Virus record (IMG/VR): IMGVR_UViG_3300025000_000061
Coordinates: 32,001-96,000 of that record
From: a virus
Reading direction: 5' to 3' (one strand)
Length of the DNA stretch: 64,000 nucleotides
Translations under genes and position numbers: made by a program
In this document: one piece after another, positions 2,369-58,062 of the stretch
Position numbering within the stretch: position 1 is the stretch's first letter
Layout: each line of letters begins with the position of its first letter
The notes under the pieces: generated by a model
What the model was told of the DNA's origin: nothing
The model's database searches: none
Seen by the model: only the letters and a program-made list of their open reading frames with translations

Positions 2369-2418
2369 AGTCAAAATGAAAGTTTAGTTTCATCACGATA
2401 TTAGGGGGAGGAATATTA

Positions 2419-2859
2419 ATGAGAGATAAAATAAGATTTCATTTTAGTTCAGGTTGTTATGTTAATGATTTTATGAAAGAATTTTTACTAAAAATTAAAA
2501 ATAATATTGATAAAGAAGATATATTATTTGAGCATAAATCAACATTAATTTATAAATCAAATAATGTAGAAGTATCTATTTCTAATGTAGGTTTAGATGT
2601 GCATTTATCTAACATTGAAGAAATAAATATAGAAAAATTTATTAATATATTGTTACAGGAACATAAAAAATTAAAAGATTTATATGAGCAATTCCCAAGA
2701 TTATATGAATTTACTATATTTACTAATGATAAATACTGTGATGAAGTTAGGAAACAGTTAATTGAATTAGAAGCAGATTTTACTGAGAATAATTTTAAAT
2801 CATTTGATGAAATGACGTATACGTTTTGTGTATGTACTAAAATTAAATTTTACAAATAA
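2419..2859 (+). CDS. Hypothetical protein
   Basis: ORF with GGGGAGG SD. Confidence 0.75.
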   Translation: MRDKIRFHFSSGCYVNDFMKEFLLKIKNNIDKEDILFEHKSTLIYKSNNVEVSISNVGLDVHLSNIEEINIEKFINILLQEHKKLKDLYEQFPRLYEFTIFTNDKYCDEVRKQLIELEADFTENNFKSFDEMTYTFCVCTKIKFYK

Positions 2860-2864
2860 AGGAG

Positions 2865-3284
2865 ATGAATAATATGGAAAATGAAATTGTTCAATATTTT
2901 GTAGTTAATAATGAGATTAATATTTCTTCGCCCAAATTATCTGCTCAGATAGGGCATGTAGCAACCATAATTACATATGAAATTACCAAATTAATGTATC
3001 AACCAATAAATTTAGATGAATATGTTAATCCTAATGTATTAATAAATATTAATGATTGGATAAATTGGTATGATAATGGCAAAGGGCAAAAGAAAATTAT
3101 ATTAGCAGGTAAAGAAAAACAATTATTAAAATTAATTGATCAAGGATTTTATTATATTAGAGATAATGGTTTAAATGAATTATTGCCGGATACATTAACG
3201 TGTGTAGGACTTCCACCTATGAAAAGATTTGAAGCACAGAAATACATAAAAAGATTACAATTATATAAAGGGGAGAAAGTATAA
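2865..3284 (+). CDS. pth2: Peptidyl-tRNA hydrolase, PTH2 family
   Basis: Motifs QYFVVN..KLSAQIGH, QKKIIL, IRDNGLNELLPDTLTCVGLPP. Confidence 0.85.
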   Translation: MNNMENEIVQYFVVNNEINISSPKLSAQIGHVATIITYEITKLMYQPINLDEYVNPNVLININDWINWYDNGKGQKKIILAGKEKQLLKLIDQGFYYIRDNGLNELLPDTLTCVGLPPMKRFEAQKYIKRLQLYKGEKV

Positions 3285-3481
3285 TGAATAAACCATATTA
3301 TATATTAAATAGAGATGAATTTATAAGTATTTTAAATTTATTTCATGCTTATGGATTTGATTTCAAAGAAAATGAATTACAAGAATTTGGCTTGTTAGTT
3401 TTAATTGATAAAGTAATTGGTGATATATCAAAAGAAAAATTTGATTTGAAATATAAATTAAGCAAATTGGAAGGAGAATAA
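3284..3481 (+). CDS. Hypothetical protein
   Basis: ORF with SD. Confidence 0.7.
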   Translation: MNKPYYILNRDEFISILNLFHAYGFDFKENELQEFGLLVLIDKVIGDISKEKFDLKYKLSKLEGE

Positions 3482-3486
3482 TAATC

Positions 3487-3663
3487 ATGTTAGTAGAATT
3501 CAAAGCATGTGAAACTTGTTTATGTGTATCATGTTGTTGGACTTATGATTGTCCAAAAGCAAAAGGATATGTATGTGTTGATTGTAGTGGTGATCCTCCT
3601 AAATCAGAAGAAGAATGTGAATATTATGAAATGGAATCTTATTTTAAAAATAAGGGAGAGTAA
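3487..3663 (+). CDS. Small Cys-rich protein, 58 aa (not in ORF track)
   Basis: GGAG SD; MLVEFKACETCLCVSCCWTYDCPKAKGYVCVDC...; fits better than the overlapping track ORF 3509..3700. Confidence 0.7.
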   Translation: MLVEFKACETCLCVSCCWTYDCPKAKGYVCVDCSGDPPKSEEECEYYEMESYFKNKGE

Positions 3664-3668
3664 AATAT

Positions 3669-4097
3669 ATGAGTTATCAAGAAGCATGGGAAGAACTTAA
3701 AGAATGGTTATTAAGAAGTCAAGAAATAGTTAAAGAATTTAAAGATGATAAGAGTATAGAAAATAATAGATATTTTATTTTAAGATTAAATGAAAAACTA
3801 AAAACGATGAAAATGATTAATAGAAAAATAGATCAATTAGAGAAAATTCATATTGATGACGGAGGTTGTAAGTTAATTGTAAGTCCTGAATTAGAGTATT
3901 TTAGCAATAACTTTGATGAAATATGTTGTAAATATGATGGACGATGGATAGCAATAAAAGGTGATAAGATAGTTGGTCATGGTGATACATTGCATAAAGC
4001 ATGTGAAATGGCAAGAAATAATGGATACGAGAAATATGTGACTACTAGAGCAAATAGAGATGGGTGGAATTGTGACTATGTAAGTTTGTTGGGTTAA
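3669..4097 (+). CDS. Hypothetical protein with C-terminal DUF5678-like domain
   Basis: KYDGRWIAIKGDKIVGHGDTL motif. Confidence 0.6.
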   Translation: MSYQEAWEELKEWLLRSQEIVKEFKDDKSIENNRYFILRLNEKLKTMKMINRKIDQLEKIHIDDGGCKLIVSPELEYFSNNFDEICCKYDGRWIAIKGDKIVGHGDTLHKACEMARNNGYEKYVTTRANRDGWNCDYVSLLG

Positions 4098-4123
4098 GAT
4101 TAAAAGAGGAGGAATTAAGAAAT

Positions 4124-4844: not shown

Positions 4845-4954
4845 AATATTTATCTATATATTGTGTGTATATGGTTGTTAGACTACAATATATAGTATAA
4901 AAATCATGATAAAAGACAGATTTGGAATTAAAATAAGGAGGTAGTTAAGTTTAA

Positions 4955-5838: not shown

Positions 5839-6094
5839 TATTTTAATGAAGTAGGACTTTTATTATGATTTAGAAAGGAGAAAAAGATATGAATTATAAT
5901 TTACAATTAATATTGTTTTTAGGGCTATCTATTTTATTGTTTAGGATTTTTAGTTGGTGGACAAATTGGTTGGAAAGCAGGATATGATTTTTATGATAGA
6001 AATAAAGATGTAATAAATGAAAATAATAAAGATAATAAGATAAGATTGAAATATCCAAATAATTTTTAATTTTTCTTAAAGGAGAATAATACAT

Positions 6095-7301: not shown

Positions 7302-7724
7302 TTGAAAATATTACATAATGCTCAGTGTTATAAGCAAGATAGGGAGTTGGATTGGAGAGGGTGGTGTCCGAAGAGGGGTGAGATTTATTTGTGTCAATTG
7401 GGTAATGAAGGTCTTATATATTCAGAGATTAAGGGGTATCGTCCCGTATTGGTTGTGTCAAATAACATAGCAAACAAACATAGTCCAGTAGTTTCTATTA
7501 TACCATTAACTTCTAGTCAAATAAAAAATAATAATATGCCTGTTCATGTTAAAGTAGGAGTAGAAGAAGGGTTACGAACTTCGAGTTTAATTTGTTGTGA
7601 GCAGACTAAAACCGTATCTAAAAATCGTATGTTCATAAATGGTAGTTTAACTAGAATTTGTAAATTGAGTAGTAAATCGATGTGTAAAGTGGACGAGGCA
7701 ATACGAATACAATTTGGATTGTAA
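7302..7724 (+). CDS. mazF: MazF/PemK-family endoribonuclease, no adjacent antitoxin
   Basis: PKRGEIYLCQL...SEIKGYRPVLVVSNNIANKHSPVVSIIPLTS...HV...CEQTKTVSKNR; catalytic Arg and Thr positions retained. Confidence 0.92.
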   Translation: MKILHNAQCYKQDRELDWRGWCPKRGEIYLCQLGNEGLIYSEIKGYRPVLVVSNNIANKHSPVVSIIPLTSSQIKNNNMPVHVKVGVEEGLRTSSLICCEQTKTVSKNRMFINGSLTRICKLSSKSMCKVDEAIRIQFGL

Positions 7725-7873
7725 ATAAATTGGGAATAGATTATAAATATAAATTATAATATATATTATCATATATTATAAAAGGGTGTGATGTCTTTGA
7801 TTGTGTAAAAATAAATTAAAAAGTTATTGTGTTTAAATTGTATCTATTAAAAAATAATATAAAAGGAGGATAT

Positions 7874-10008: not shown

Positions 10009-10019
10009 TAAAATAAATG

Positions 10020-10048: not shown

Positions 10049-10080
10049 ATAAATAGAAAATTACTAAGGGAGTTGGTTAT

Positions 10081-11039: not shown

Positions 11040-11055
11040 TATGACTACATAGAAA

Positions 11056-13809: not shown

Positions 13810-15183
13810 ATGCTTAGTATAAAAAATGCTATGTTAATAGGAGAGTTAAAACCACTAATATTAAAGTATGGCAACAATTCAAAAATCTATAACATTATAC
13901 AAGAGGAATTTATTAAAAAAGGGTTATCTGGTAGCAATGCAAAAAACTTACTAACAGGTAAAATTGCTTTAGAAACATTAGATATTACCAATCAAAAAGA
14001 ATTATTCTTATTATTTTCTTTTACAGATGCTATGAAGAAAGCACTAAGTACATTTGATGAAATGTCCAAGGACACTTTTGGCATGGAAGAGGAATATATT
14101 AAATTAAAATTAGAATATTATTTTACACCCATAGAGATTGAAGAATTTACAGAATTCGTTATAGAGAAAGAAGAAGTAAGAAAATATCCGTATAGATTAA
14201 GAAATATGTTAAAAGTAGGAGAAAATCATTATATAGGGATTATAACTTCTAAAGAATTAGCCGAAATAGATTCTACTAATGATATAGTATATGACTTTGC
14301 AACACAAAGAGATCCTAAAATTGATATATTTGGAATGAGACGTATTAATGTTGACACAAGAAAAATTGATGCAATTGAAAAAAGTTTACTTGCTGGTGAA
14401 TATTTTTCAGATGAAATCAAGTTGAATGTTAAGAATGATGGAGAAGATCATATCGAATTCGATTCAAAGGACGGAATTTATGGTGATCTTATTATTCATT
14501 CAGGAACAATAACTTGTTTTGATGGCTATCACAGAAAAACTGCCAATTCTAAAGCGCAAAATAAAAATAATGAATTGCAATTTAACTGGAAGTTAGGTGT
14601 CACCAATTATCCAGAACCTAAAGCAAGAAAATTTATGACACAGATTAATAAACAAAAACCTATTAAACGTGAATACGTTAAAAATATTGATGAAACAAAA
14701 AATGAAAATACAATTGTCAATAATATTATTAATAATTCTAATTCTGAATTTGCCGATAAAATTAAAGAATCTGATGCAGAATTAAAATTTAGTGGTTTAA
14801 CTAAAAAATCTATATTATCTCTAGCAATAGAAGAACAATATGAAGAATTTTTAAACACTAAAATTTATAATATTGAAATCTCTAATTGGATAGTAGACTT
14901 TACAAATTATTTAATGGGACTATATCCTAATGAATTTTTATTTAATGTAGACAAAACTAAAAAAGTAAGTTATATTAATAATAGAAATATGTTCATAGGT
15001 TATATTGCACTTTCAAGAAAGTTATATAAGCAAGATGATTGGAAGAGTAAGACCGTTAAAATAATGAACAGTATTGATTTTAGCATTGAAAATAGCATAT
15101 GGAAGAATATTCGTATTGATGATAATATTTTAAATAAAACATCAAGAAAAGAATTATATAATCTATTTATAAAGGAGGTGTAA
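13810..15183 (+). CDS. ParB/DndB-like (DGxHR) protein, resembling SPbeta YopQ/SroE
   Basis: TQRDP and FDGYHR motifs; 457 aa; immediately upstream of an integrase-fold gene. Confidence 0.7.
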   Translation: MLSIKNAMLIGELKPLILKYGNNSKIYNIIQEEFIKKGLSGSNAKNLLTGKIALETLDITNQKELFLLFSFTDAMKKALSTFDEMSKDTFGMEEEYIKLKLEYYFTPIEIEEFTEFVIEKEEVRKYPYRLRNMLKVGENHYIGIITSKELAEIDSTNDIVYDFATQRDPKIDIFGMRRINVDTRKIDAIEKSLLAGEYFSDEIKLNVKNDGEDHIEFDSKDGIYGDLIIHSGTITCFDGYHRKTANSKAQNKNNELQFNWKLGVTNYPEPKARKFMTQINKQKPIKREYVKNIDETKNENTIVNNIINNSNSEFADKIKESDAELKFSGLTKKSILSLAIEEQYEEFLNTKIYNIEISNWIVDFTNYLMGLYPNEFLFNVDKTKKVSYINNRNMFIGYIALSRKLYKQDDWKSKTVKIMNSIDFSIENSIWKNIRIDDNILNKTSRKELYNLFIKEV

Positions 15184-15186: not shown

Positions 15187-16251
15187 ATGGTAAAGCATAA
15201 AAATGGTAAGATTAACTTAGCAGAGAGAGTATTTAAACATGATAGAGATGTTAAAGAAGAATTTTTAAAAGATATTAAACCATCAACTGCAAAAACTATA
15301 AGAAGCATACTTTTTAAAGTAGATGATTATGAAGATCGAATCGGTAAAAGTATATATGATTTTACCTTTGAAGAGCGTGATGATTTCTTTATTTCTCAGT
15401 TTTGTAATAAAAGTAAGGGCGTTATTAATACAACAAGATCATATTTAGTAAAGTATATTAACCATTGTATTGATAACAACCTTGTTAGACATATGGAGAA
15501 TAGGTTTGATTTAATTTCTAAAGATGATATTGATAAATATATTAATGATACTGCAATGCAAATGAAATATCTATCTAGAGAAGAAATTAAAGAAGCACAG
15601 GATAAATTAGTTAATAATTGTGATAAGTTAATTTTGCAATTAATACCTTTGTCTGTCAGAGGGCGTACAGAATTGAATAATACTAATGAAGAATTAATTA
15701 ATTTGAGAGTAAAAGATGCTGAAGAATCTTATGAAACAGGTATTTTGCATGTCTGGAATAATGACGGTGATAGAAGACCTGTGAAAATTGATGAAGAAAC
15801 AATAGAATTATTGAAAAAGACAATAAATGATGATAGTTATATTATTAATAACGGAAGCATTTATGATAAAAAAGGGAGAATACTTGGCAGGGGTATCGGA
15901 GAAAAATGTTTTCCTTTAAATGATACTGGTTATGTATTTAGAACTGCTGGTAAGAATAAAAAAGGAAAAGTTAAAACTAATTTTTTTGGTTCTAGGATGA
16001 GAATAATGAAAACCTGGACGATGAATCCATTTATCACCGTAACGAATTTGTATTATTCTGGAATTATCGATTATGCTATGCAATTAAGAAAAGAAAAAGG
16101 TACAGAATTAGATAATCATGATTATATTAAAATAATTGATAAGTTTTCTTATGGTAAACCACAAATACTATCAAACAAAGAATTAGATTGGAGTGTACCA
16201 ATATCAAAAGTAAAATCTATGGTGGAAGATTATATTAATAGAAAATTATAA
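15187..16251 (+). CDS. Tyrosine-recombinase-fold protein with degenerate active site, putative master repressor (YopR/SroF/MrpR-like)
   Basis: SAM-like N-terminus; YLSREEI; VRGR..EELINLRVKD; HxxR box replaced by TNLYYSG. Confidence 0.7.
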   Translation: MVKHKNGKINLAERVFKHDRDVKEEFLKDIKPSTAKTIRSILFKVDDYEDRIGKSIYDFTFEERDDFFISQFCNKSKGVINTTRSYLVKYINHCIDNNLVRHMENRFDLISKDDIDKYINDTAMQMKYLSREEIKEAQDKLVNNCDKLILQLIPLSVRGRTELNNTNEELINLRVKDAEESYETGILHVWNNDGDRRPVKIDEETIELLKKTINDDSYIINNGSIYDKKGRILGRGIGEKCFPLNDTGYVFRTAGKNKKGKVKTNFFGSRMRIMKTWTMNPFITVTNLYYSGIIDYAMQLRKEKGTELDNHDYIKIIDKFSYGKPQILSNKELDWSVPISKVKSMVEDYINRKL

Positions 16252-16263: not shown

Positions 16264-17145
16264 ATGGCAAAAGACGTTAATTTATCTGATTACACTGATA
16301 TAGAAGTTTATAATATGCTTAGATTTGGTATTATAGGTAGATTTCCTAATAATTTTTGGGGTGGTTTAGATACCTTTAAAACTGCAAAAGATTTAACCAA
16401 GTATATGTTTGAAAATATTCTCAAATGGGATATAGAAGATATTAAAAATAATACAACAGCAGATATTTTTTATGACTATAGACTTGGTGGTATGCTGAAA
16501 CAATTATTTAATGGTAATGTTTTAGATGCATTATTAAATGCATATCCAGAATTAGAAGAAGAATGGGTAGAATCTAAAAGAAGGACTAAAAACGAAAAAG
16601 AAGAAGATAAAAGAGAAAAAGAAGAAAAAGAAACAAGAGAAAAATATACAGATGAACAATTGATAGAAAATTTACAGCAAAAATTTAAACAATTAAATAG
16701 AAATCCTTATATAAGAGAAATGTCAGATCCAGATGGAAATGTATATTTAACAAGATTTGGTAGTTGGACTAAGGCATTAATTGCAGCAGAATTGCTTGAT
16801 GATATTTGTGCAGATGTAGATGATTCCGAAGAAGCAATTTATGAAGCACAAATTAAGATTAAAGAATTTGCATATCAATTAGGAAGATACCCTACAGAGG
16901 AAGAAGTTAATGATTTATTTTCACAAGGAGAAATAAAAGTTTATTTTAAATCTTTAGTTGGACTTTATAATTATTTAAATGAAGGGTATACAAAAGAAGA
17001 ATTGATAAATATTTTGGTTGATAAAAGAAATAAATTAGATAGAAATCCAATAAACAAAGATATAAAATTCCCAAGACCAATTATTTTTATTGATAAATTT
17101 GAAAGTTGGGAAAATGCTTTAAAAGAAGCGGGATTAGATAAATAA
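16264..17145 (+). CDS. DUF4046-like domain plus homing-endonuclease-associated repeats (putative DNA-binding protein)
   Basis: EVYNML..RFPNNFW..KYMFENILKW; repeats FGSWTKALIAA and FESWENALKEAGL. Confidence 0.65.
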   Translation: MAKDVNLSDYTDIEVYNMLRFGIIGRFPNNFWGGLDTFKTAKDLTKYMFENILKWDIEDIKNNTTADIFYDYRLGGMLKQLFNGNVLDALLNAYPELEEEWVESKRRTKNEKEEDKREKEEKETREKYTDEQLIENLQQKFKQLNRNPYIREMSDPDGNVYLTRFGSWTKALIAAELLDDICADVDDSEEAIYEAQIKIKEFAYQLGRYPTEEEVNDLFSQGEIKVYFKSLVGLYNYLNEGYTKEELINILVDKRNKLDRNPINKDIKFPRPIIFIDKFESWENALKEAGLDK

Positions 17146-22183: not shown

Positions 22184-22283
22184 ATATTATAAAAAATTGA
22201 AATTTTAAAAGTATTGATTTATAAGGGTTTGTAGCATGTAAAATTGCGACAAAACCATCATTTTATGAGGAAAGGAAAAAATT

Positions 22284-27528: not shown

Positions 27529-27588
27529 AAATATTTGTTACAATATATTTTTTTTATTCAAACTTAAAATTAAAGGAGGAAAATAAAT

Positions 27589-31433: not shown

Positions 31434-31641
31434 TGGATAAATATGAGAAGGAGATAAATATGAATAAATTTATAAAAAGATTAAAGAAAAGAATTAAAAT
31501 GAAATTTTGTAAGCATGAATATGAATGGAAAGCATCTTATTTAGTGATGTTTCAACAATGTAAAAAATGTGGGAAGGTAATACCATAAGATAGATAATAA
31601 AAAAATCAACACAAATCATTTCTTTCGTCATGATTTTAGTA

Positions 31642-32667: not shown

Positions 32668-32949
32668 TACATATATACTAGATATAGTAAGCATGTAAGA
32701 GATATTCTACTATATCTAGTATTAAAAACAACACAAAATCAGGCTTTTGTCACAATATTTAAGAAAGGGGAGGAATTATCTTGGAAAACAAATATCCACT
32801 TAAAGAATGTTATGAATGTAAATTTAATTATTGTTGGATTGATTATGGTGATTGCAAATTTATTGAAGGTTGAATTTATTGAAGGTTGTATATCAAAATA
32901 TAAATATAGTTTATCAATTTTAGATTAAATTTAATAGGAGGAGAAAATT

Positions 32950-34621: not shown

Positions 34622-34957
34622 ATAAAAAAAGTATATACTATATATTGTAGTTGACTATTATTTTGACTACAATATATAGAAAAATATTAAGATCAAATCT
34701 GAAATTTATTAAAATATTAACTATATTAAAGGAGATGGTTTATTATGACAGTTAGCAAACCTGTTAAAATAGAAACAGAGATTGAAGATTTAACTACGGG
34801 ATGCACTTATATTTACAAAGGAACATTTATTGAGGATTGTAGAAAATATTTTCTATCACTATTTTATGGAAATAGACCTCATAAAATACTTTGGATTAAT
34901 CATTTATAAAATATAAATATAAATATTTTGTAATAAAATTAAAGGAGATAAAATATT

Positions 34958-36973: not shown

Positions 36974-37400
36974 ATATAACGTAAAAGGAGAATAAATTAA
37001 AGTGAAATTAATTGAAAAATTACTTGAACTTAATAATGGGAATCAATTTAATGCAGAGTGTGACTGTCCATATAATTATCATAATGGTGAAATACCAGAA
37101 AATACATTTACACCTTATTGCGATGATGATGATGGTAGTGGTTGTGAAAGGTGTCATAATCAAGAATTAATAGATTGAAATAAATAGTAGGATTTATTAT
37201 GAAAAAGAGGAGGAAGTTAAATCAACTATGAGTAAAAAAGATAAAATTATGGAGTTAAAAATAAAGTCTTGCTATTCAATAGGTTGCATAATGGAAGTTG
37301 TTACTGCTATTAATGAATCTAAACTATCTTGTTTTGTTGAAAATAAATTAGACAAAGATAGTAATTATGTTTTGAGTATCTATAAATAATATTAATACCA

Positions 37401-37604
37401 ATGATAAGATTTGTAATAAAATTTAGGAGGATTATTATAAAAAGATTTAAAAATCTTGATGAATTAAATTTATATCTTGAAAATATGTATGGTTACGATG
37501 AGGAAGAATCTATTTATATGCTTTTAGAAGATTTCGAAAAAATTAAAAAAGCATTAGAACATATAAATCGTGTTGTTCAAAATGTTGAAAATATTATTGT
37601 TTAA
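37401..37604 (+). CDS. Hypothetical protein (start possibly ATA near 37437)
   Basis: ORF with internal AGGAGG SD. Confidence 0.55.
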   Translation: MIRFVIKFRRIIIKRFKNLDELNLYLENMYGYDEEESIYMLLEDFEKIKKALEHINRVVQNVENIIV

Positions 37605-37651
37605 GTTTAGACCAAAGAATCGTTTGATTTAAAAATAAAGGATGTGATAAT

Positions 37652-37924: not shown

Positions 37925-37927
37925 ATT

Positions 37928-38353
37928 ATGATTAAAGTTACGTTTGAACACAATATTTCAAAAAAGGAGATTAATATGAGTGATTATATATCAACAAAAT
38001 GTATTAGATTACATACGCAACATCAAGATTTAGAAAGTATATTAAGTTATTTAGGTAAAAGTGAATTATATAATAATCTAAAAGAACAAGATAATTTAGA
38101 CATATATGAAATCAATGAAATATTAGAAAAAGAAAATATAAGAATAATAGAATATAAAAATATATATTACATTGATATTATTTTGCAAAATGAATATGGT
38201 GAGCAAGAAGTGAGTTTATATATATCATTTAATGAGATTAATAATATTATTATTGATGATTTTATTGATAAATACGGTAATGTAGAAATATTAGATATAA
38301 TTATATTAGCACATAATTGGTATAATTGTTGTGAAGAACCTTATAGTTGTTAA
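37928..38353 (+). CDS. Hypothetical protein
   Basis: ORF; the SD favours the internal ATG (MSDY). Confidence 0.7.
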   Translation: MIKVTFEHNISKKEINMSDYISTKCIRLHTQHQDLESILSYLGKSELYNNLKEQDNLDIYEINEILEKENIRIIEYKNIYYIDIILQNEYGEQEVSLYISFNEINNIIIDDFIDKYGNVEILDIIILAHNWYNCCEEPYSC

Positions 38354-42281: not shown

Positions 42282-42542
42282 TAAAAAATACATAAAACAT
42301 TAGCTAGGAGGTAATTTTATGGACTTGGAAACTGCTTGTAAGAATTATGAAGAAGAGTATCATAGAAATGTTGAAGAATTACATCAATTAAAAACACAGG
42401 TACAAAATATGATTGAAAATTTATTTATTGATGGATTCACTACAAATACTAAAAAAATGATGGTTGAGATTTTAAAAAAATGTAGGTAAATAATGTTAAA
42501 ATAAAAGACACATTTGATCGTAAAATCAGAAAGGAATAATAT

Positions 42543-43866: not shown

Positions 43867-43905
43867 AAAACATCACAAATAATTAGATTTGTGATGATTT
43901 AGGTA

Positions 43906-49013: not shown

Positions 49014-49039
49014 AAACAATAGCAAATTTATGTTTCATT

Positions 49040-49279
49040 GTGAATTTAATAGAAGGAGGGAAAATTTTTATGTACACTTATATTATATGTATGAAAAATG
49101 GCAAAGAATATAAAATCAAATGTGATTTTAATTTTAAAGATTTAATTGATAATATAATGTCGAAAAATCAAAATGAAATTAAACTATTACATTTTAATGT
49201 AGTAGATTCCAAAGATAGAATTGTTGCTATAATAGGTGGTGAGGTATCAAGTATTGAGTATTTTGTTAAAATTAATTAG
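49040..49279 (+). CDS. Hypothetical protein
   Basis: ORF; the SD favours ATG MYTY. Confidence 0.7.
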   Translation: MNLIEGGKIFMYTYIICMKNGKEYKIKCDFNFKDLIDNIMSKNQNEIKLLHFNVVDSKDRIVAIIGGEVSSIEYFVKIN

Positions 49280-49732: not shown

Positions 49733-49848
49733 ATTTAGAGTAGAAAATACTATATTTAGTAATACATATTTAATAAAATACTAGATATAGTATTAATATA
49801 AATGCTGAATTTTATAATGAAATAATAATAAATTGGAGGGATATATTT

Positions 49849-51150: not shown

Positions 51151-51282
51151 AAATACATATAACTATACATATAACTATATGTAGTATGTATTATAATTTT
51201 AAACTACTACATATAGTAAAAAATCATTACAAATTCGCAGTTTTATTCAAAATATTATCACAAAAAAGGAGAAATTAAATTT

Positions 51283-51696: not shown

Positions 51697-51699
51697 ATT

Positions 51700-52338
51700 A
51701 TGAATGTAATTGAAAAATACATAAGTGTTGAAGGAGAGGGAATATTTCAAGGTTATCCAACTGTATTTATAAGATTTACAGGATGCAATTTAAAATGCTC
51801 ATATTGTGACAGTTTATATGCACATGATGTAGAAAATAGTAGTAAATATAAAATTACTAATATATTAAGTTATATATTAAAAACAAAAATAAAAAAAGTT
51901 ACACTAACTGGTGGAGAACCTTTATGTCAAGACAATATTTATAAATTAATTAATATATTACTATATAATAAAATTAATGTGAATATAGAAACTAATGGCT
52001 CTATATTAATAAACAATATAAATAATAATGCAGTTATAACTATGGATTACAAACTTCCATCAAGTAATATGGAATCATTTATGTTATTAGATAATTTAAA
52101 GTTACTTAAATTAGATGATGTATTAAAGTTTGTTTGCTCAGATGAAAATGATTTAAAAACTGCATTAAATATTATTAATAAATATACTCCACAATGCAAT
52201 ATATATTTTAGTCCTGTATTTAACACTATACAACCAAAAAGAATAGTTGAATTTATATTAGATAATAAATTATTTAATTGTAGAATGCAATTACAAATCC
52301 ATAAATATATTTGGGGCAAAGAAACGAGAGGTGTTTAA
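51700..52338 (+). CDS. queE: 7-carboxy-7-deazaguanine synthase (radical SAM)
   Basis: SVEGEG..G.PTVFIRFTGCNLKCSYCDS; LTGGEP; IETNG; QIHKYIW. Confidence 0.93.
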   Translation: MNVIEKYISVEGEGIFQGYPTVFIRFTGCNLKCSYCDSLYAHDVENSSKYKITNILSYILKTKIKKVTLTGGEPLCQDNIYKLINILLYNKINVNIETNGSILINNINNNAVITMDYKLPSSNMESFMLLDNLKLLKLDDVLKFVCSDENDLKTALNIINKYTPQCNIYFSPVFNTIQPKRIVEFILDNKLFNCRMQLQIHKYIWGKETRGV

Positions 52339-52341
52339 TTT

Positions 52342-52980
52342 ATGAAAAATGACAAATGTGTTGTTGTATTATCAGGTGGTCAAGATTCAACAACTTGCTT
52401 ATTTTGGGCAATAAAAAATTTTAATTATGTTGAAGCAATAGGTTTTGATTATGACCAAAAACACAGGTTAGAACTTAGATGTGCAAAAGAAATATGTGAT
52501 AAACAAAGTATTAAATATACTGTACTTGATTTAAGTTTACTTAATCAGTTGACAATTAATGCACTTACAAGAGATGATATTATTCCTGAAATGGTAAATG
52601 GAAAATCTACTGCATTTGTAGATGGTAGAAATCTTCTTTTCTTAACTTTTGCTTCAATTTATGCAAAACAAAAAGGTATAAATAATATTATTACAGGTGT
52701 ATGCGAAACTGATTTTAGTGGGTACTCCGATTGCAGAGATATATTTATTAAATCATTAAATGTAACATTGAATTTAGCAATGGATTATAATTTTGTTATT
52801 CACACTCCTTTAATGTGGTTAAATAAAAAAGAAACATGGGAATTAGCAGATAAATTGGGATGTATTGATATTGTTAAAAATGAAACATTAACTTGTTATA
52901 ATGGAATTGTAGGAGATGGATGTGGTGAGTGTCCGGCTTGTAAATTGAGATTGAAAGGTTATGAAGAATATTTAAAATGA
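52342..52980 (+). CDS. queC: 7-cyano-7-deazaguanine synthase
   Basis: SGGQDSTT; FVDGRN; DFSGYSDCR; [13 protein letters not shown]. Confidence 0.95.
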
Positions 52981-53007
52981 TAAAATAAATAATATTGATT
53001 AAAATAG

Positions 53008-53037
53008 TTGACAAATATATTAATATTGTGTTAAAAT
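53008..53037 (+). promoter_or_regulatory. Sigma-A promoter
   Basis: TTGACA-18 bp-TAAAAT with TG. Confidence 0.6.
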
Positions 53038-53065
53038 AAATCAACAAATAAAATATAGAAAGGAA

Positions 53066-53491
53066 ATGAAACTGATTAAAATTGCATTAATTAGTTGTAC
53101 AAAGTTAAAACAAACATATCAATGCGAAGCACAAGAAATGTATTTACCATCACAATTATTTAAAAAAGCATCTTACTATATCAAACAACAGAATTATAAT
53201 AATTGGTTTATACTTTCTGCAAAATATGGTTTACTTAATCCTAGTGATTTAATTGAATCATATGATTTAACTCTAAATAATATGAAATCAATAGAAGTTA
53301 AAAAATGGTCGCAAAAAGTATTTAATCAGTTAATTAATTATGATATTTATGAAATTGATTTTTATGCTGGTGAAAAATACAGAAAATATCTTATTTCATT
53401 ATTAGAACAAAGAAATATTATATGTAATATCCCATTAAAAGGATTAGGTATAGGTCAACAATTAAAATTTTATAAGGAGGCAATAATATGA
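53066..53491 (+). CDS. DUF6884-family protein
   Basis: IALISCTKLK..A.EMY..S.LF..WFILSAKYGL..YD.TL..AG.KY..PL.GLGIGQQL. Confidence 0.8.
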   Translation: MKLIKIALISCTKLKQTYQCEAQEMYLPSQLFKKASYYIKQQNYNNWFILSAKYGLLNPSDLIESYDLTLNNMKSIEVKKWSQKVFNQLINYDIYEIDFYAGEKYRKYLISLLEQRNIICNIPLKGLGIGQQLKFYKEAII

Positions 53492-53709
53492 AAATTAATA
53501 ACAAATGGAAAATAAATAAAGGTGATGATGTGACAATTAAAGCACAGGGTATTACTGTAAAAGGAGATGTTTTATCAGCAGAATATTATGAAGATGGTGG
53601 ATGGTATATTGAATTAATTAATGCTAATGTCCCTGGTGGATATAGTTATTATAAACAAAAATATGATGGTGGAAATGTAGTGAATGTTCAAAAGATGGTG
53701 ATTAATTGA
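53488..53709 (+). CDS. Hypothetical protein
   Basis: ORF with SD. Confidence 0.7.
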   Translation: MKINNKWKINKGDDVTIKAQGITVKGDVLSAEYYEDGGWYIELINANVPGGYSYYKQKYDGGNVVNVQKMVIN

Positions 53710-54515
53710 TTTTATATGTGTCAAAAACAAATGATAAATTAAACACAAAAGAATTAAATACTGAATTTCTTTCTGAATATTTATGTTTAAATCCTAAATA
53801 TAATGTATCTATTAAAAATCCAAATGTTAAAGTATTACTAGATTCTGGTGCTTTCCAAGATAAAGAAAAAGAAAAAAGATTGTCTTTACAAGAAGCATTA
53901 AATAGACAGTTAAATTTTGAAAAAAAAGTAGGTTTTATATCTGAACGTATCGTTGCCTATGATTATATAGGCAACGTAAAAGAAACTATAGAAGCAAATA
54001 AATTCTTAGTAGAAAAGAGAGAAGAATTAGAACCAAGACAATTAGTATTAATGATTCAAGGAAATACTACACATGATTACATACATTGTTTAGTAGAAAC
54101 TTTATTAATAACGAAATCAGAAGATTGTATAGGATTTGGTGGAGTTGCATTGGCTGGTAGAGAAAATAATACTAAATTTAAATTATTAGATGCATTTAAA
54201 ATTGGATTGCCGATAATTTATAATAGTGGGATAAAAAACATACATATCTTTGGAGTGGGTAGTTTTACAGTATTAAAAGAGATTACTAATATAAAAAACA
54301 TATTTAAACAGTTATATATTGATACTGATGAATTAAATATAAGTTGTGATACTGCTGCTTTTGAAATTAGATCGACAATGGGAAGTGTGATAAATTTAGA
54401 AGAAGAGAAATGGGAAAAGGTTTATACAAAAGCACAAAAATACATAAATTATCATCCAGCAGATTTAACTATAGAAAATATTAATAAAGCATTACAAATT
54501 ATAAGTAAAATATAA
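53706..54515 (+). CDS. TGT-fold transglycosylase, DpdA-like (putative DNA 7-deazaguanine insertion enzyme)
   Basis: LLDSGAFQ, IQG, GFGGV, HIFGVG and SCDT motifs; clustered with queDEC. Confidence 0.7.
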   Translation: MILYVSKTNDKLNTKELNTEFLSEYLCLNPKYNVSIKNPNVKVLLDSGAFQDKEKEKRLSLQEALNRQLNFEKKVGFISERIVAYDYIGNVKETIEANKFLVEKREELEPRQLVLMIQGNTTHDYIHCLVETLLITKSEDCIGFGGVALAGRENNTKFKLLDAFKIGLPIIYNSGIKNIHIFGVGSFTVLKEITNIKNIFKQLYIDTDELNISCDTAAFEIRSTMGSVINLEEEKWEKVYTKAQKYINYHPADLTIENINKALQIISKI

Positions 54516-54634
54516 ATCAACATAAAACAGTAGTTTTATAGCAAAATAATAATATAATTAAATAAACAAAATAAACTATAATTAATCTGTCGTTTAATGA
54601 GAAAGAATTATATGTTATAATAATATTAGGAAGG

Positions 54635-55387
54635 GTGAAAAACATAAAAGTAATTAATATTTCAAAAGAAGAAAAATTAGATAAAAAACTATATACAGTA
54701 AAAAATGTTCCTATGGAGACTGTAAAGGAAATTTGTAAAAACAAACACTATTTACATAGAGTGCCACATATTATTGCTAGTTATGGACTATATAAAAACG
54801 ATTTATTATTAGGAATTATAACCTTCGGTATACCACCAAGTCCTTACTTAATGAAAATATGTGGTGAAGAATATAAAAGTAATGTTTTAGAATTGAATCG
54901 TCTTTGGTGTTATGATGAATCTCCTAGAAACTCTGAAAGTTATTTGATTTCACAAGGTATTAAACTATTAAAGAAAGATAAACCTGATATAAAGATATTA
55001 ATTTCATTTGCAGATACGAGACAAAATCATTTAGGATACATATATCAAGCATCAAATTGGTATTTTACAGGATGGTCTATTCCAGGTGGAGGAAGTATAG
55101 TTATTAATGGCAAAGAGGTTCATCCTAAGAATTTAAACAATAAATATGGGACTAGTGATTTAGAAAAATTAAAAGTAATACTTAATACAGAAAATATTCA
55201 TTATCGTCCAAGGAGTAAAAAATGTAGATATGTATATTTTATTAGTAAAGATAAAAGAGAAAATGCATTATTAAAAACATTATGTAAATATGAAATACAA
55301 AATACATATCCAAAAGAATTTCCGAAAGAAACTGAATATAAGACTCAAAAACAAAAACTACTTGATAAAAATGTAGACGGTTTTTAG
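54635..55387 (+). CDS. Mom-like GNAT DNA-modification protein
   Basis: HYLH, ELNRLW, ESYLI, ISFAD..HLGYIYQASNWYFTG, KCRYVY. Confidence 0.82.
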   Translation: MKNIKVINISKEEKLDKKLYTVKNVPMETVKEICKNKHYLHRVPHIIASYGLYKNDLLLGIITFGIPPSPYLMKICGEEYKSNVLELNRLWCYDESPRNSESYLISQGIKLLKKDKPDIKILISFADTRQNHLGYIYQASNWYFTGWSIPGGGSIVINGKEVHPKNLNNKYGTSDLEKLKVILNTENIHYRPRSKKCRYVYFISKDKRENALLKTLCKYEIQNTYPKEFPKETEYKTQKQKLLDKNVDGF

Positions 55388-55447
55388 ACATAGTTTTGAT
55401 TGGGTTAAATTAAATTAACAAAATGCAAAAATAAATATAAATACATG

Positions 55448-55476
55448 TTGCAAAACCAAAATAATAATGTTATAAT
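55448..55476 (+). promoter_or_regulatory. Sigma-A promoter
   Basis: TTGCAA-17 bp-TATAAT with extended TG. Confidence 0.7.
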
Positions 55477-55670
55477 GTTATTAATAAAATTATTAGGAGG
55501 TTTTAATTATGCAAAAATGTGAAGTATGTGGAAAAGAAACAGAAAATTATTGTATTTGTGATAGTTGTAACTCTGCTTATTGTGTTGAACATATAGGTCA
55601 ATTTAATGAATGTCCTTTATGTGGAAAGGAACATACATTTAAAGAGAATTTTTAAAGTATAATAAAAGGA

Positions 55671-56093
55671 GTGTTAAATATGAGTTATAAAATTTACATT
55701 GGAGATTCTAAATGCACAAAATGTGGTAAGTCTCATAAGAAAATCTTTGAGATTGATGGTAAACCATACGGATCAAGTTGTGCAAAAGATATTATTGGTA
55801 AAGAATTAACTGCTCCTGTATGGTTGTATGAATTAGCAGAACAACATGTGCAAAGTAGAATAAAAAGCAACGATATTGAAAATGTCGAAGATTTTGAAGT
55901 TAATTTTTGGAATGAATTGCCTGATGACAAAAATACAATATTGGGTAGAAGTTTTAATAATTTATTTGAGAGTTATATTTATCATAAAACAATCAAAATT
56001 AAAGGAAAATCAGTAAAAGTTGATTGGCAACATGAAATAGTTGGTTATTTGCATAATAGACATGCAGAAATTACATTTAATACAATCAAATAG
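55671..56093 (+). CDS. Hypothetical protein (CxxCG..YGSSC)
   Basis: ORF with SD. Confidence 0.75.
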   Translation: MLNMSYKIYIGDSKCTKCGKSHKKIFEIDGKPYGSSCAKDIIGKELTAPVWLYELAEQHVQSRIKSNDIENVEDFEVNFWNELPDDKNTILGRSFNNLFESYIYHKTIKIKGKSVKVDWQHEIVGYLHNRHAEITFNTIK

Positions 56094-56389
56094 TTTAAAA
56101 TATGTTAAATTTGGTTTATCACGTTTTTTATCGATCAAATATTCAATTTAACTCACTTATACTTCCATTTGCTATGTAGTATAAATGTCATAATAAAATA
56201 ACGGTTTTGTCACAATATAGGTAAAATTACGCAATATCGTAATGTATCTGATTTTACCCATAATAATGTCAGCAAACCCTTATAATACAAGGGTTAGAGA
56301 GCATTTTTATACTTAAAATAAAAGTATAAAATAAATATTGTGACAAAAGAAAGATTTTGTTCAAACTTTAAAGGAAAAAGGAGGAAATT

Positions 56390-56932
56390 ATGAACAAAGA
56401 ATACATAAAGTTTTTAAATTTTAGAACAGAATTAATTGAATTATTAGATAAGTATAGATACCAAATATCAGGTACAAATCTTGATGATGGCTCAATGAAT
56501 ATAGAAAATAAAAATGGTATTGCTTATATATTAAGAGATTCTTATTCAGATTACGAAGCATTGGATTTTGACTGGAATATATTATCTACAGATTATATAT
56601 TAAATATGTTCCCAGAAGATAATAATTCGCCTATTAAAAATAACAATATTGGTATATTTACTAATAATTATGATAAAGTTTCTATGTTATTTGATGATCT
56701 ATATAATCAAAATAAAGAAAATGTAAAGAGATTCAGAAAGAGCAAAGAAGAAATAAATTTATTATTAGAAGATGATAGATATTTTGTTTGGATTAAACCG
56801 ATAGATAATTCAAGAGGTCATAGATGTTCAAAAGTTGTTTATATTGATAGGAATTTAACATTAAATGAGTTACAATATAATGTTATGCCTATTTGTTGTT
56901 ATTGTAAAAGAGAAGATGTAAAGGTGTTTTAA
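56390..56932 (+). CDS. Hypothetical protein
   Basis: ORF with AGGAGG SD. Confidence 0.75.
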   Translation: MNKEYIKFLNFRTELIELLDKYRYQISGTNLDDGSMNIENKNGIAYILRDSYSDYEALDFDWNILSTDYILNMFPEDNNSPIKNNNIGIFTNNYDKVSMLFDDLYNQNKENVKRFRKSKEEINLLLEDDRYFVWIKPIDNSRGHRCSKVVYIDRNLTLNELQYNVMPICCYCKREDVKVF

Positions 56933-57128
56933 ATAAATATAAATAAAAATAAGGAGGAAAATAGTATGGTAATGAAACCTGAAGAATTTGATAGTTTATA
57001 TTTATCATTTTTAAATGGTAATGAATTAACTAGAGAGGAAGTTAAAAATTTGTTTGATACTTTTGGAGAATTAATAAATGAGTATAAACGATTATTGGAA
57101 GAATTTAATAAAACCGTAGGAGGGTAAT

Positions 57129-57704
57129 ATGAAAAGAATTGATGTAATGACTGATATTGAAACATTAGGTAAAGATTCTGATTCTACAATATTTCAAATA
57201 TCTGCAATAGCTTTTAATATTGAAAGTGGAGAATACATAGATAAATTTAATATGATTGCTGATATTGAAAAGAATAAAATAATAAATGTATCAGGTAGCA
57301 CAATAAAATGGTGGTTAAATACCGATAAAGAATTATTAACAAAACTACTTAATAATGGAGAATATTCAAGTGAAGAAATACTTAAACAATTTCATATATG
57401 GTTAAATTCATTAAGTGAAGATATGAAGAATGTTTATTTATGGGGTAATGGTATTCTATTTGATAATAAGATGTTACAATGTCAAATGAAAAATATCAAT
57501 TTAGATTATCCTATATTTTATAGGAATGATAGAGATATGAGAACATTAGTAGAATTAGCAAGTCATAAGGTAGGGATTCAAACAGAAAAGGAATTTAGAG
57601 ATAAATATAAAAATCCAGATTTAATTGCTCATGATGCTTTTGATGATGTCAAGGGACAAATTGATATTGTTATTAAATGCCATAATATATTGATGAAAGG
57701 ATAA
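57129..57704 (+). CDS. DEDDh 3'-5' exonuclease (phage RNase T/DUF5051-like)
   Basis: DIETLG; WGNGILFD; RDMRT; HDAFDD. Confidence 0.85.
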   Translation: MKRIDVMTDIETLGKDSDSTIFQISAIAFNIESGEYIDKFNMIADIEKNKIINVSGSTIKWWLNTDKELLTKLLNNGEYSSEEILKQFHIWLNSLSEDMKNVYLWGNGILFDNKMLQCQMKNINLDYPIFYRNDRDMRTLVELASHKVGIQTEKEFRDKYKNPDLIAHDAFDDVKGQIDIVIKCHNILMKG

Positions 57705-57711
57705 TATAATT

Positions 57712-57933
57712 ATGAACAATTATAAACTTATGGAAGAATATATTCAATGGAGAAAAGATACTGGTAAATTTAGACATGAATTAAGAGATATAATTGTAAA
57801 TGATAATGGTGTAATTAAAACAGAGAAGAAGATGGCATGTGTTATAAATACTTCACCTGAAGATTGGAAAGAGTTTTGTGAAGATAGAGATATAGAATAT
57901 GAAGGTGAAATGAAATTGTTGGCAATGTGTTAG
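57712..57933 (+). CDS. Hypothetical protein
   Basis: ORF with SD. Confidence 0.7.
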   Translation: MNNYKLMEEYIQWRKDTGKFRHELRDIIVNDNGVIKTEKKMACVINTSPEDWKEFCEDRDIEYEGEMKLLAMC

Positions 57934-58062
57934 TATGTAGAAAATCTTGACAAATTATCAATAGTAATTACTATATGTAGTATTAAAAATATATAAAAAT
58001 ACTACATATAGTAATAATATCATGATCAAATTCCTCTTTTATATTAACTTGAAAGGAGAATT

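What the first reader, a model, noticed from the sequence alone, without database searches (positions are those of the whole stretch)
2371..58047. About 19 dif-like 28-bp sites (11-6-11) punctuate the accessory arrays: cassette recombination sites or operators of the integrase-fold repressor
Seen, for example: TCATGACAAAA-TACTCG-TTTTGTGTTAA (20883), TCATAATAAAA-TAACGG-TTTTGTCACAA (56188), TTGTGACAAAA-GAAAGA-TTTTGTTCAAA (56338), TCAAAATGAAA-GTTTAG-TTTCATCACGA (2371) and TTTGCACAAAA-GAGAAT-TTTTATCGTGA (30405). Arms are conserved, each 6-bp core differs, and sites lie between a stop codon and the next SD. I saw none in the 7-18.8 kb control region or after 58.1 kb. They bracket functional units: the MTase alone (49793-51224), the que/TGT block (51224-54517) and the Mom block (54517-56188). 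Established: 11-6-11 is the architecture of Xer/dif tyrosine-recombinase sites. Inference: either an integron- or pdif-like gene-shuffling system in a phage, or genome-wide operators for the recombinase-derived repressor.
Basis: partly seen in the sequence, partly recalled or inferred. Interest (0 to 1): 0.85.

Follow-up and report, generated by a model that had tools for sequence, protein, structure and literature searches.

The report
Repeated 28-bp dyad at phage gene junctions
A large SPbeta-like groundwater phage carries about 40 copies of a 28-bp palindromic DNA site just in front of gene starts. They are most likely docking sites for a silencing protein, and related phages have swapped gene blocks at them, but nothing shows an enzyme-driven gene-cassette system.

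Summary
The window lies in a 151.8-kb SPbeta-like phage record with 39 copies of a degenerate 11-6-11 dyad (TYAnnAYAAAA-N6-TTTTRTnnTRA), 23 of them in the window. A matrix trained on window sites finds 15 hits in 11 kb of intergenic DNA outside the window, against 1 expected.

- **Position:** sites lie between a stop codon or hairpin and the next SD (median 7 nt).
- **Nature:** the arms are symmetric but do not co-vary, so this is a protein-binding sequence, not a folded hairpin.
- **Recombinase:** none is competent. The integrase-fold protein at 15187-16251 is a YopR/MrpR/SroF homologue keeping 3 of 7 catalytic positions. No PF00589 gene exists, and all 39 cores differ.
- **Shuffling:** related phages do break synteny in or at the sites, and two cores are flipped.
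- **Wider spread:** the dyad core (YAAAA-N6-TTTTR, spacer strictly 6) is also strongly enriched in Bacillus phage SPbeta. There it is distinct from the SPBRE that MrpR binds.

Best reading (0.42): a stoperator-like operator array of the SroE/SroF repression module that also serves as a recombination hotspot. This scan noted the same kind of dyad before on other DNA (e1-5390111, e1-5411158).

The parts
2371..2398 (.). dyad site, 21 nt before a start codon
   Evidence: 18.8 bits
4904..4931 (.). dyad site, preceded by an AT-rich inverted repeat at 4854-4895
5841..5868 (.). weaker dyad site just 5' of an SD
   Evidence: 9.5 bits
20883..20910 (.). dyad site, preceded by a GC hairpin about 11 nt upstream
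22244..22271 (.). dyad site; its right arm overlaps the SD
27535..27562 (.). dyad site
   Evidence: 14.1 bits
30405..30432 (.). dyad site
31606..31633 (.). dyad site ending 8 nt before the -35 (TTGACA) of a sigma-A-type promoter
32728..32755 (.). dyad site; its spacer is the reverse complement of the spacer at the orthologous site in a relative; boxed repeat at 32675-32722 upstream
34687..34714 (.). dyad site with boxed repeat at 34636-34681 upstream
37175..37202 (.). weaker dyad site just 5' of an SD
37392..37419 (.). dyad site
37606..37633 (.). dyad site
37926..37953 (.). dyad site
42496..42523 (.). dyad site; identical site in a relative (c1289) with a different left flank
43870..43897 (.). 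dyad site ending 8 nt before a perfect -35; four relatives keep the spacer, right arm and promoter but have four different left flanks
49016..49043 (.). weaker dyad site; the same spacer in two relatives with three of the four possible flank combinations
49793..49820 (.). dyad site before the MTase gene; boxed repeat at 49748-49792 abuts it
51224..51251 (.). dyad site between the MTase gene and the queD/E/C block; the same spacer lies before the MTase gene in relative L021
54517..54544 (.). dyad site between the que block and mom
56188..56215 (.). dyad site; in L021 homology to this site starts at site position 5, joining it directly to the MTase 3' end (que and Mom blocks absent)
56338..56365 (.). 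dyad site; homology with L021 ends inside its right arm
58020..58047 (.). dyad site with an 18-20-nt perfect inverted repeat at 57965-58017 upstream
13810..15183 (+). YopQ/SroE homologue (DndB/DGQHR family by homology); candidate reader of the dyad
   Evidence: tblastn to SPbeta YopQ 4.6e-19; 50% identity to the L005 homologue, which hits Pfam DndB above cut-off, as does SPbeta YopQ
15187..16251 (+). YopR/MrpR/SroF homologue, an integrase-fold protein without a full catalytic set; candidate reader of the dyad
   Evidence: Pfam MrpR_N_CB 5.9e-14; PDB MrpR 6e-15; catalytic positions
16264..17145 (+). DUF4046 plus two homing-endonuclease-associated repeats, syntenic with the two genes above in all relatives; third candidate DNA binder

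Best explanation
The 28-bp elements are dispersed, two-fold symmetric protein-binding sites. The half-site is TYAnnAYAAAA, and the 6-bp spacer is unconserved but relatively GC-rich. They stand at the head of about 40 translation units, between the previous stop codon (often a hairpin or boxed repeat) and the SD, or 8-9 nt upstream of a -35.

Most likely they are a stoperator-like operator array. Through it the phage's SPbeta-type repression module keeps the accessory and early arrays silent unit by unit in the lysogen. That module is the SroE/YopQ-like DndB-family protein at 13810-15183 and the SroF/YopR/MrpR-like integrase-fold protein at 15187-16251.

Because the same short sequence recurs at many junctions, it is also where related phages have exchanged gene modules, and the palindrome itself lets the spacer flip. 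That is why the sites bracket functional units.

Shown: the sites are real, symmetric, not structure-constrained, placed at fixed positions, conserved in a clade, and coincide with mosaic junctions.

Inferred: that a repressor binds them, which protein it is, and that binding blocks transcription.
For: - Enrichment 14- to 16-fold on held-out DNA.
- Symmetric information content without arm covariation: 255 Watson-Crick pairs against 250.6 +/- 6.6 after permutation, with positions Y2/R27 and Y7/R22 independent.
- Adjacent YopQ and YopR homologues in SPbeta gene order.
- SPbeta MrpR binds a repeated intergenic element at about 10 sites and represses (PMC10516654).
- I read SPBRE 19-31 nt before the ATG of yonX, yopM, yopV and yonP, and 7 nt upstream of the aimR -35. 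The same two geometries occur here.
- No site lies in the 7-18.8 kb control region, which must stay expressed.
- The same dyad, in the same pre-SD place, occurs in relatives with SroF at 75% and 50% identity and 34 times in 40 kb of a more distant relative.
- A relative whose SroE and SroF are only 41% and 45% identical has no such dyad: 0 pattern matches in 150 kb and 3 weak matrix hits in 61 kb.
- The DndB family, to which YopQ belongs, binds spaced palindromes (PMC4507180).
- No other dispersed box emerged from a de novo word search of intergenic DNA.
Against: - No binding data exist.
- phi3T SroF binds a 26-bp asymmetric box as a monomer (bioRxiv 10.1101/2025.11.27.690993), whereas this site is a dyad.
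- SPbeta has its own YAAAA-N6-TTTTR dyads: 10 in 9.3 kb of intergenic DNA against 0.72 expected, with spacer 6 only, and 15 against 2.6 by a second tool. They are distinct from SPBRE, and apart from those beside aimR and near yonP they lie outside the regions named for the ten MrpR ChAP-seq peaks.
- One motif shared by phages with 50%-identical repressors is unusual for immunity specificity.
- The small AT palindrome found at pre-SD positions in the dyad-less relative is only modestly repeated, so operator/repressor co-variation is not shown.
Confidence: 0.42

Rival explanations
1. Binding sites for some other factor, either a host protein or a phage activator. They would mark the starts of delayed-early or middle transcription units, as an activator-dependent or phage-specific promoter element, or act as an architectural DNA-bending site.
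For: - At least 16 of 39 sites follow a hairpin or boxed repeat at a fixed 0-13 nt, as if transcription restarts there.
- The A4-N6-T4 core is conserved from SPbeta to this clade, which suits a conserved factor better than a fast-evolving immunity repressor.
- Strong sigma-A promoters mostly lack sites, so the sites define a separate class of units.
Against: - No sigma-A -35/-10 signal lies upstream of or inside the sites beyond controls (mean best score 7.4 against 7.2).
- Sites end 0-15 nt from the SD, leaving no room for a -10 and a leader.
- A two-fold symmetric site is not expected of a promoter.
- No YonO, sigma factor or HU gene was detected in the record.
- A close relative from the same samples lacks the dyad, which argues against a host factor.
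Confidence: 0.23
2. Active site-specific recombination sites. These would be dif/pdif- or integron-like core sites cut by a tyrosine recombinase (host Xer, or the phage's integrase-fold protein). The 6-bp core would act as a compatibility tag, so that only sites with the same core exchange modules between co-infecting phages.
For: - The 11-6-11 architecture with inner A and T tracts resembles the single-recombinase sites difH and difSL (PMC5357621).
- 60 inter-genome site pairs share one adjacent flank but only 2 share both.
- Junctions fall at arm/core borders, as at L021 7289 and 7439.
- The same core occurs with different neighbours: one core lies after the MTase gene here and before it in L021, and another has four different left contexts.
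- Arg-I, Glu and Tyr are kept in the clade's integrase-fold protein.
Against: - Lys, His-II, Arg-II and His/Trp-III are replaced in all 12 clade members.
- No PF00589 gene is in the record; the only recombinase is a large serine integrase.
- Fully orthologous sites do not keep the core better than the arms: identity 0.79 against 0.83-0.87.
- 37 of 66 junctions without a site also break, and array turnover at 18-29 kb needs no sites.
- Most gene junctions have no site, unlike integron cassettes.
- Spacer flips are explained by the palindrome alone.
Confidence: 0.1
3. PeSL-like regulatory cassettes with no dedicated binder. These would be repeated hairpin-plus-leader modules whose only shared role is to punctuate transcription or translation, and which shuffle genes by ordinary recombination between repeats.
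For: - Hairpin-plus-site modules of about 100 bp are mutually similar: L018 5847-5988 matches three window modules at 73-80% identity.
- Mosaic junctions lie at them.
- There is precedent in T4-type phages (PMC2839356, PMC4122927).
Against: - No sigma-70-type promoter lies in the module.
- Strict two-fold symmetry and a fixed 6-bp spacer, kept even in SPbeta, point to recognition by a protein.
- More than half of the sites have no hairpin.
Confidence: 0.12
4. RNA elements: an 11-bp stem with a 6-nt loop in the mRNA leader, acting as a processing site, a 5' stabiliser or a translational operator.
For: Sites lie in the transcribed strand just 5' of SD sequences. The phage encodes two MazF/PemK endoribonucleases.
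Against: - No compensatory change between the arms (permutation P = 0.28).
- Half of the sites pair at only 4-7 of 11 positions.
- No Rfam match.
Confidence: 0.03

Closest known systems
SPBRE of Bacillus phage SPbeta and Phi3TRE of phi3T, operators of the integrase-fold master repressor MrpR/YopR/SroF (PMC10516654; bioRxiv 10.1101/2025.11.27.690993)
   Same: The phage has adjacent YopQ and YopR homologues. A long element is repeated in intergenic DNA of unidirectional early arrays. The placement is the same, either just 5' of the SD or 7-9 nt upstream of a -35.
   Different: The site here is a symmetric 11-6-11 dyad with a free spacer, not an asymmetric 15-26-bp box read by a monomer. There are about 40 copies rather than about 10. 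SPbeta carries a similar dyad in addition to SPBRE, so the dyad may be a second element rather than the SPBRE counterpart.
Stoperators of Cluster A mycobacteriophages (L5 gp71 repressor; named from my own knowledge, not read here)
   Same: Dozens of repressor sites in short intergenic regions across the genome, thought to stop transcription between genes.
   Different: Stoperators are asymmetric 13-bp sites oriented with transcription and bound by an HTH repressor. These sites are palindromic and 28 bp long.
PeSLs, the composite promoter/stem-loop cassettes of T4-type phages (PMC2839356, PMC4122927)
   Same: Repeated regulatory modules at gene junctions of hyperplastic regions. Insertions, deletions and replacements between related phages are bounded by them.
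   Different: No sigma-70-type promoter is found in the module, and the conserved part is a dyad rather than a promoter. Minicircles were not tested.
Xer core sites (dif; the single-recombinase sites difH and difSL; pdif modules) (PMC5357621)
   Same: Two 11-bp imperfect inverted arms around a 6-bp centre. The inner A-run and T-run resemble those of difH and difSL.
   Different: No competent partner recombinase is found in the phage. There are about 40 sites with 39 different centres. They are not paired in inverse orientation around modules. The arms differ from the dif sequences quoted in the review.
Integron attC sites
   Same: Imperfect palindromes at the 3' side of single genes or small gene groups in a co-oriented array.
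   Different: The length is fixed at 28 bp. The sequence is conserved rather than the structure, with no arm covariation. There is no IntI, no attI and no Pc. Most junctions lack a site.
DndB operator, 5'-TACG-N10-CGTA-3' (PMC4507180)
   Same: A spaced palindrome bound by a DGQHR/DndB-family regulator. YopQ/SroE belongs to that Pfam family.
   Different: The sequence and spacing differ. DndB has two sites at one promoter rather than an array. Binding of SroE to any DNA motif is not reported in the papers I could read.

Membership tests
Xer/dif-type (including pdif) recombination sites | Two roughly 11-bp inverted arms around a 6-8-bp central region | tested here: met
   Column statistics of 36 sites.
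Xer/dif-type (including pdif) recombination sites | A cognate tyrosine recombinase with the R-E/D-K-H-R-H/W-Y catalytic set | tested here: not met
   No PF00589 hit in the 151.8-kb record, which is 82% complete. The SroF-like protein keeps only R, E and Y. Host Xer could not be examined because the host is unknown.
Xer/dif-type (including pdif) recombination sites | Recombining partners share the central region | tested here: inconclusive
   All 39 centres in this genome differ. Orthologous sites in other phages often share the centre, with one flank replaced.
Integron attC | Structure conserved rather than sequence (folded bottom strand), with variable length | tested here: not met
   No arm covariation; length fixed at 28 bp.
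Integron attC | Adjacent IntI integrase with attI and Pc | tested here: not met
   No tyrosine recombinase of PF00589 type.
SPBRE/Phi3TRE operators of MrpR/SroF | The phage encodes an MrpR/SroF-family protein next to a YopQ/SroE homologue | tested here: met
SPBRE/Phi3TRE operators of MrpR/SroF | The element is repeated at promoters or leaders of early units | tested here: met
SPBRE/Phi3TRE operators of MrpR/SroF | An asymmetric long box read by one monomer | tested here: not met
   The site is two-fold symmetric.
SPBRE/Phi3TRE operators of MrpR/SroF | Bound by the repressor (ChAP-seq, EMSA) | not testable with these tools
   No binding data and no protein-DNA modelling tool were available.
SPBRE/Phi3TRE operators of MrpR/SroF | The sequence is specific to the phage's own repressor | tested here: inconclusive
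   The same dyad occurs with SroF at 75% and 50% identity and is absent with SroF at 45%. A like dyad exists in SPbeta beside SPBRE.
PeSL regulatory cassettes | Strong sigma-70-type promoter plus stem-loop in one repeated module | tested here: not met
   A stem-loop or boxed repeat lies upstream of at least 16 of 39 sites, but there is no promoter signal above control.
PeSL regulatory cassettes | Indels and replacements between close relatives are bounded by the element | tested here: met
   (9 of 9 site-bearing junctions break against 37 of 66 without a site, Fisher p = 0.010).

The most novel reading that the evidence does not exclude
SPbeta-like phages, from Bacillus SPbeta itself to this groundwater clade, share a second dispersed control element beside SPBRE. 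It is a junction dyad with a strict 6-bp spacer (core YAAAA-N6-TTTTR, extended here to 11-6-11). It would be the so-far unknown DNA target of the second master repressor SroE/YopQ, a DndB/DGQHR-family protein, or of SroE together with SroF. Its palindromic, dif-like form would also make it the preferred crossover point for module exchange between phages.
Probability: 0.25. Interest if true: 0.7.

Novelty: new variant of a known kind. Interest (0 to 1): 0.5.

Why it matters
The role of SroE in the SPbeta/arbitrium switch is called open in the 2025 preprint. The dyads offer a concrete candidate DNA target for SroE, and it can be tested directly in the laboratory model SPbeta.

The sites also mark, at nucleotide resolution, where anti-restriction and DNA-modification genes have been swapped between related phages. 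These genes include orphan methyltransferases, the 7-deazaguanine genes and Mom. This is a Gram-positive-type counterpart of the PeSL-mediated shuffling known from T4-type phages.

If instead a recombinase-fold protein still synapses these sites, they would show an intermediate between a recombination site and an operator.

Tried and rejected
- **RNA or DNA hairpin:** rejected. Arm pairing equals the permuted expectation and there is no Rfam or tRNA match.
- **Sigma-A promoter inside or just upstream of the site:** no enrichment over control junctions. Only 3 sites lie next to strong promoters.
- **Exact 5-mer dyad enumeration:** it did not pick up the motif because the arms are degenerate. 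Generic 11-6-11 complementarity scans were unspecific.
- **Similarity searches:** megablast against phage records found nothing. A single-protein IMG/VR scan with the SroF-like protein found nothing.
- **Co-occurrence of dyad arrays with SroF in other contigs (G001-G004):** no MrpR_C_cat gene was found. The contigs are 18-80% complete and end before the expected place, so this is uninformative.
- **Phage HU-family protein as binder:** no such gene is present. No YonO or YopP homologue either.
- **Exact-consensus scan of 185,579 species genomes:** it gave 25 single scattered hits and no arrays, so there is no host clue.
- **Replacement box in the dyad-less relative G005:** a small AT palindrome (7 against 0.33 expected) proved only weakly repeated when extended.
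- **GAATGATAAAATAAT as an alternative operator:** only 4 exact copies, all promoter -10 modules.

Full report
**What the window is.** It is bases 32001-96000 of a single 151,782-bp virus record. GC is about 24%, and 307 of 326 crudely called genes lie on the + strand. CheckV rates the record 82% complete.

The protein at 15187-16251 matches Pfam MrpR_N_CB (5.9e-14). Its only solved relatives are SPbeta MrpR/YopR (6e-15), and it is 25% identical to yopR over 86% of its length. The gene before it (13810-15183) is a YopQ homologue (tblastn 4.6e-19). So the pair corresponds to SroE/SroF of SPbeta-like phages.

Other genes fit an SPbeta-like temperate phage:
- A large serine integrase lies at genome 143736-145253 on the minus strand.
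- Replication genes resemble those of SPbeta-like phages: DnaB-like helicase, primase, RecJ-like exonuclease, a 1091-aa polymerase and exonuclease V.
- Relatives come from groundwater metagenomes and keep the control-region synteny.

**The observation.** Starting from 14 sites and iterating a 28-column matrix with the spacer masked gives 36 sites of at least 13 bits in the genome. Three weaker ones lie just before SDs. Twenty-three of the 39 are in the window.

The motif generalises beyond the sites it was built from. A matrix from window sites alone was scanned outside the window:
- It gives 12 hits of at least 14 bits against 0.87 expected.
- Restricted to 11.1 kb of intergenic DNA with its own order-3 background, it gives 15 hits of at least 10 bits against 0.96 +/- 1.0, and none of 200 simulations reached the observed count.

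The consensus is aaaa-TYAtnAYAAAa, then N6, then TTTTRTnatRA-nwT. The left arm and the reverse complement of the right arm have the same degenerate consensus. All 39 spacers differ, and their GC is 42% against 22% around them. Thirty-four sites are intergenic. Twenty-six have an SD and a start codon within 30 nt, with a median of 7 nt from site end to SD. Three sites end 8-9 nt before a perfect TTGACA. None lies in 7-18.8 kb or after 58,047 in the window, but 16 lie elsewhere in the genome.

**Sequence or structure.** If the arms paired as RNA or as folded single-stranded DNA, variable positions should change together. They do not.
- Watson-Crick pairs total 255 against 250.6 +/- 6.6 after shuffling right arms among sites (P = 0.28).
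- The two Y/R position pairs are statistically independent.
- Half of the sites pair at only 4-7 of 11 positions.

The element is therefore a two-fold symmetric sequence motif. That is the signature of a protein bound as a dimer or as two protomers, and not of an attC-like or RNA hairpin.

**Is there a recombinase?** No PF00589 gene is found in the record. The SroF-like protein and 11 clade members were aligned with MrpR and read at the seven positions of Table 3 of PMC10516654.
- Kept: Arg-I (which MrpR has lost), Glu and Tyr.
- Replaced: Lys by Asp, His-II by Thr, Arg-II by Tyr or variable residues, and His/Trp-III by Pro.

It is not a competent tyrosine recombinase.

**Comparison with SPbeta.** From the SPbeta record I read the SPBRE as a box of about 21 bp. 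It sits 19-31 nt before the ATG of yonX, yopM, yopV and yonP, and 7 nt upstream of the aimR -35. MrpR binds these boxes and represses (PMC10516654). The sites here occupy the same two positions, which at first made them look like the SPBRE counterpart.

Two results complicate that.
- **Mode of binding.** phi3T SroF reads a 26-bp asymmetric box as a monomer (bioRxiv 10.1101/2025.11.27.690993).
- **A separate dyad in SPbeta.** Its annotated intergenic DNA (9.3 kb of the 47 kb read) holds YAAAA-N6-TTTTR 10 times against 0.72 +/- 0.81 expected. The counts for spacers 4 to 8 are 0, 0, 10, 1 and 0. A second tool gives 15 against 2.6 over the whole 47 kb. All eight matrix hits of at least 10 bits are intergenic, and one lies directly upstream of the aimR SPBRE.

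These dyads are distinct from SPBRE. Apart from the ones beside aimR and near yonP, they lie outside the promoter regions named for the ten MrpR peaks. The dyad is therefore better seen as a second dispersed element of SPbeta-like phages.

**Who might read it.**
- **YopQ/SroE.** It is shared by SPbeta and this phage, and it is required for lysogeny. The papers I could read report no DNA target for it; the 2025 preprint calls its role unclear. SPbeta YopQ and the L005 homologue hit Pfam DndB above cut-off (58.6 and 39.6 bits). The window protein is 50% identical to the L005 protein. DndB is a regulator that binds spaced palindromes (PMC4507180). This makes SroE, alone or with SroF, the leading candidate, but it is inference only.
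- **A relative without the dyad.** One relative from the same samples has SroE and SroF at 41% and 45% identity. It has no dyad of this consensus: 0 matches with up to 3 mismatches in 150 kb, against 9 in this genome and 7 in another relative. It has only 3 weak matrix hits in 61 kb. That fits a specificity tied to the phage's own proteins rather than to a host factor, but I could not show a convincing replacement motif there.

**The cassette test.** Relatives were fetched through the MTase, a 207-aa protein and the ligase.
- **Loss of the que and Mom blocks.** L021 lacks both (window 51.2-56.2 kb). Its MTase 3' end is joined to the sequence that follows site 56188, and homology starts at position 5 of the site.
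- **A breakpoint inside an arm.** Homology between L021 and the window ends inside the right arm of site 56338.
- **An inserted gene.** L021 has an extra N6/N4 methyltransferase gene between two sites.
- **One-sided flanks.** Across eleven non-redundant genomes (near-identical contigs merged), 60 pairs of sites share one adjacent flank (at least 70% identity over 30 nt). Only 2 pairs share both flanks.
- **One spacer with many contexts.** A single spacer with its right arm and promoter is found behind four different left contexts. Another spacer has three of the four possible flank combinations.
- **Breaks at site-bearing junctions.** In blastn comparisons, all 9 informative junctions with a site are homology breaks, against 37 of 66 without a site (Fisher p = 0.010).

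The association is real but not exclusive. More than half of site-free junctions also break. Array turnover between 18 and 29 kb needs no sites. Fully orthologous sites do not keep the spacer better than the arms.

Two spacers are exact reverse complements of the spacer at the corresponding site in a relative. One of these has a homologous left flank and right arm. Such loop flips are what a palindrome produces by itself through template switching or arm-arm exchange, as I know from minute inversions in plastid hairpins. They need no recombinase.

**Context of the sites.**
- Seven of 39 sites are preceded at 0-8 nt by a long AT-rich inverted repeat, against 1.8% of control junctions. Each arm of that repeat is itself a TACTA-N4-TAGTA palindrome (7 against 0.07 expected).
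- At least eight more sites follow a GC hairpin at about 11 nt.
- In the distant relative G003 this hairpin-dyad-SD module recurs about once per kb. It flanks at least eight orphan methyltransferase paralogues.
- No sigma-A promoter signal accompanies the sites.

**Verdict.** The sites are real, and they are ordinary in kind: a dispersed operator-like array of an SPbeta-type phage, of which this scan has already reported several. They are unusual in form. They are a dif-like dyad shared across a clade and echoed in SPbeta, they are distinct from SPBRE, and they coincide with mosaic junctions.

I put 0.42 on a repression-module operator array that doubles as a recombination hotspot. The rivals are 0.23 for another factor or a promoter role, 0.12 for a binder-less PeSL-like cassette, 0.10 for active site-specific cassette exchange, and 0.03 for an RNA element.

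Noticed in passing
window 7302-13271: The control region upstream of the YopQ/YopR pair holds two PemK/MazF-family genes (7302-7724, 11180-12055), DUF7487, and an AgrB homologue (12585-13271). It sits where SPbeta has the arbitrium genes. This suggests a peptide-signalling input to the lysis-lysogeny switch.
   Followed up: partly
window 4854-4895, 32675-32722, 34636-34681, 49748-49792, 51172-51219, 57965-58017: Pairs of 14-bp palindromic boxes (TACTA-N4-TAGTA; 7 against 0.07 expected) lie 28-33 bp apart centre to centre and abut dyad sites. They resemble tandem NrdR boxes, or could fold as long hairpins. Which applies was not resolved.
   Followed up: partly
window about 20835-20870, 22215-22240, 30365-30395; genome 26040-26065: A second class of hairpin (AAACC...GGGTTT with a conserved TTGAT-containing loop) sits about 11 nt upstream of at least eight dyad sites. 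It recurs in relatives (L018, L021, L001, G003).
   Followed up: partly
window 56216-56337: The roughly 120-nt stretch between sites 56188 and 56338 has no ORF. It has nested inverted repeats and a GC stem, and is 87-92% conserved in L018 and L021. It may be a small RNA gene. There is no Rfam match.
   Followed up: partly
window 36339, 46648, 49309, 53008, 58715 and others: Strong sigma-A-type promoters (TTGACA-N17-TAAAAT with an extended TG) share a near-identical 15-bp -10 module. Most have no dyad next to them.
   Followed up: partly
L117+L118 (IMGVR_UViG_3300009647_000134, 1-40000): A distant relative carries 34 dyad sites in 40 kb and at least eight divergent orphan N6/N4 DNA methyltransferase genes (22-32% identity to the genome's copy at 147717-148451). 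Most are single-gene units between dyads.
   Followed up: partly
L007 (NC_001884.1 45000-92000): Bacillus phage SPbeta has TAAAA-N6-TTTTA dyads at gene junctions (15 against 2.6 expected, spacer 6 only). They are separate from SPBRE. I found no description of them in the papers read.
   Followed up: yes
window 43972-46644: An RNA ligase (phrog_968) is followed by a polynucleotide kinase/phosphatase-like protein, a likely tRNA-repair pair. It lies behind a promoter with an upstream dyad.
   Followed up: no
window 17146-17642 compared with L001 12449 and L004 2470: Relatives have a top-scoring dyad plus a promoter in the long intergenic region after the DUF4046 gene. This phage has lost both there (alignment A1).
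   Followed up: partly
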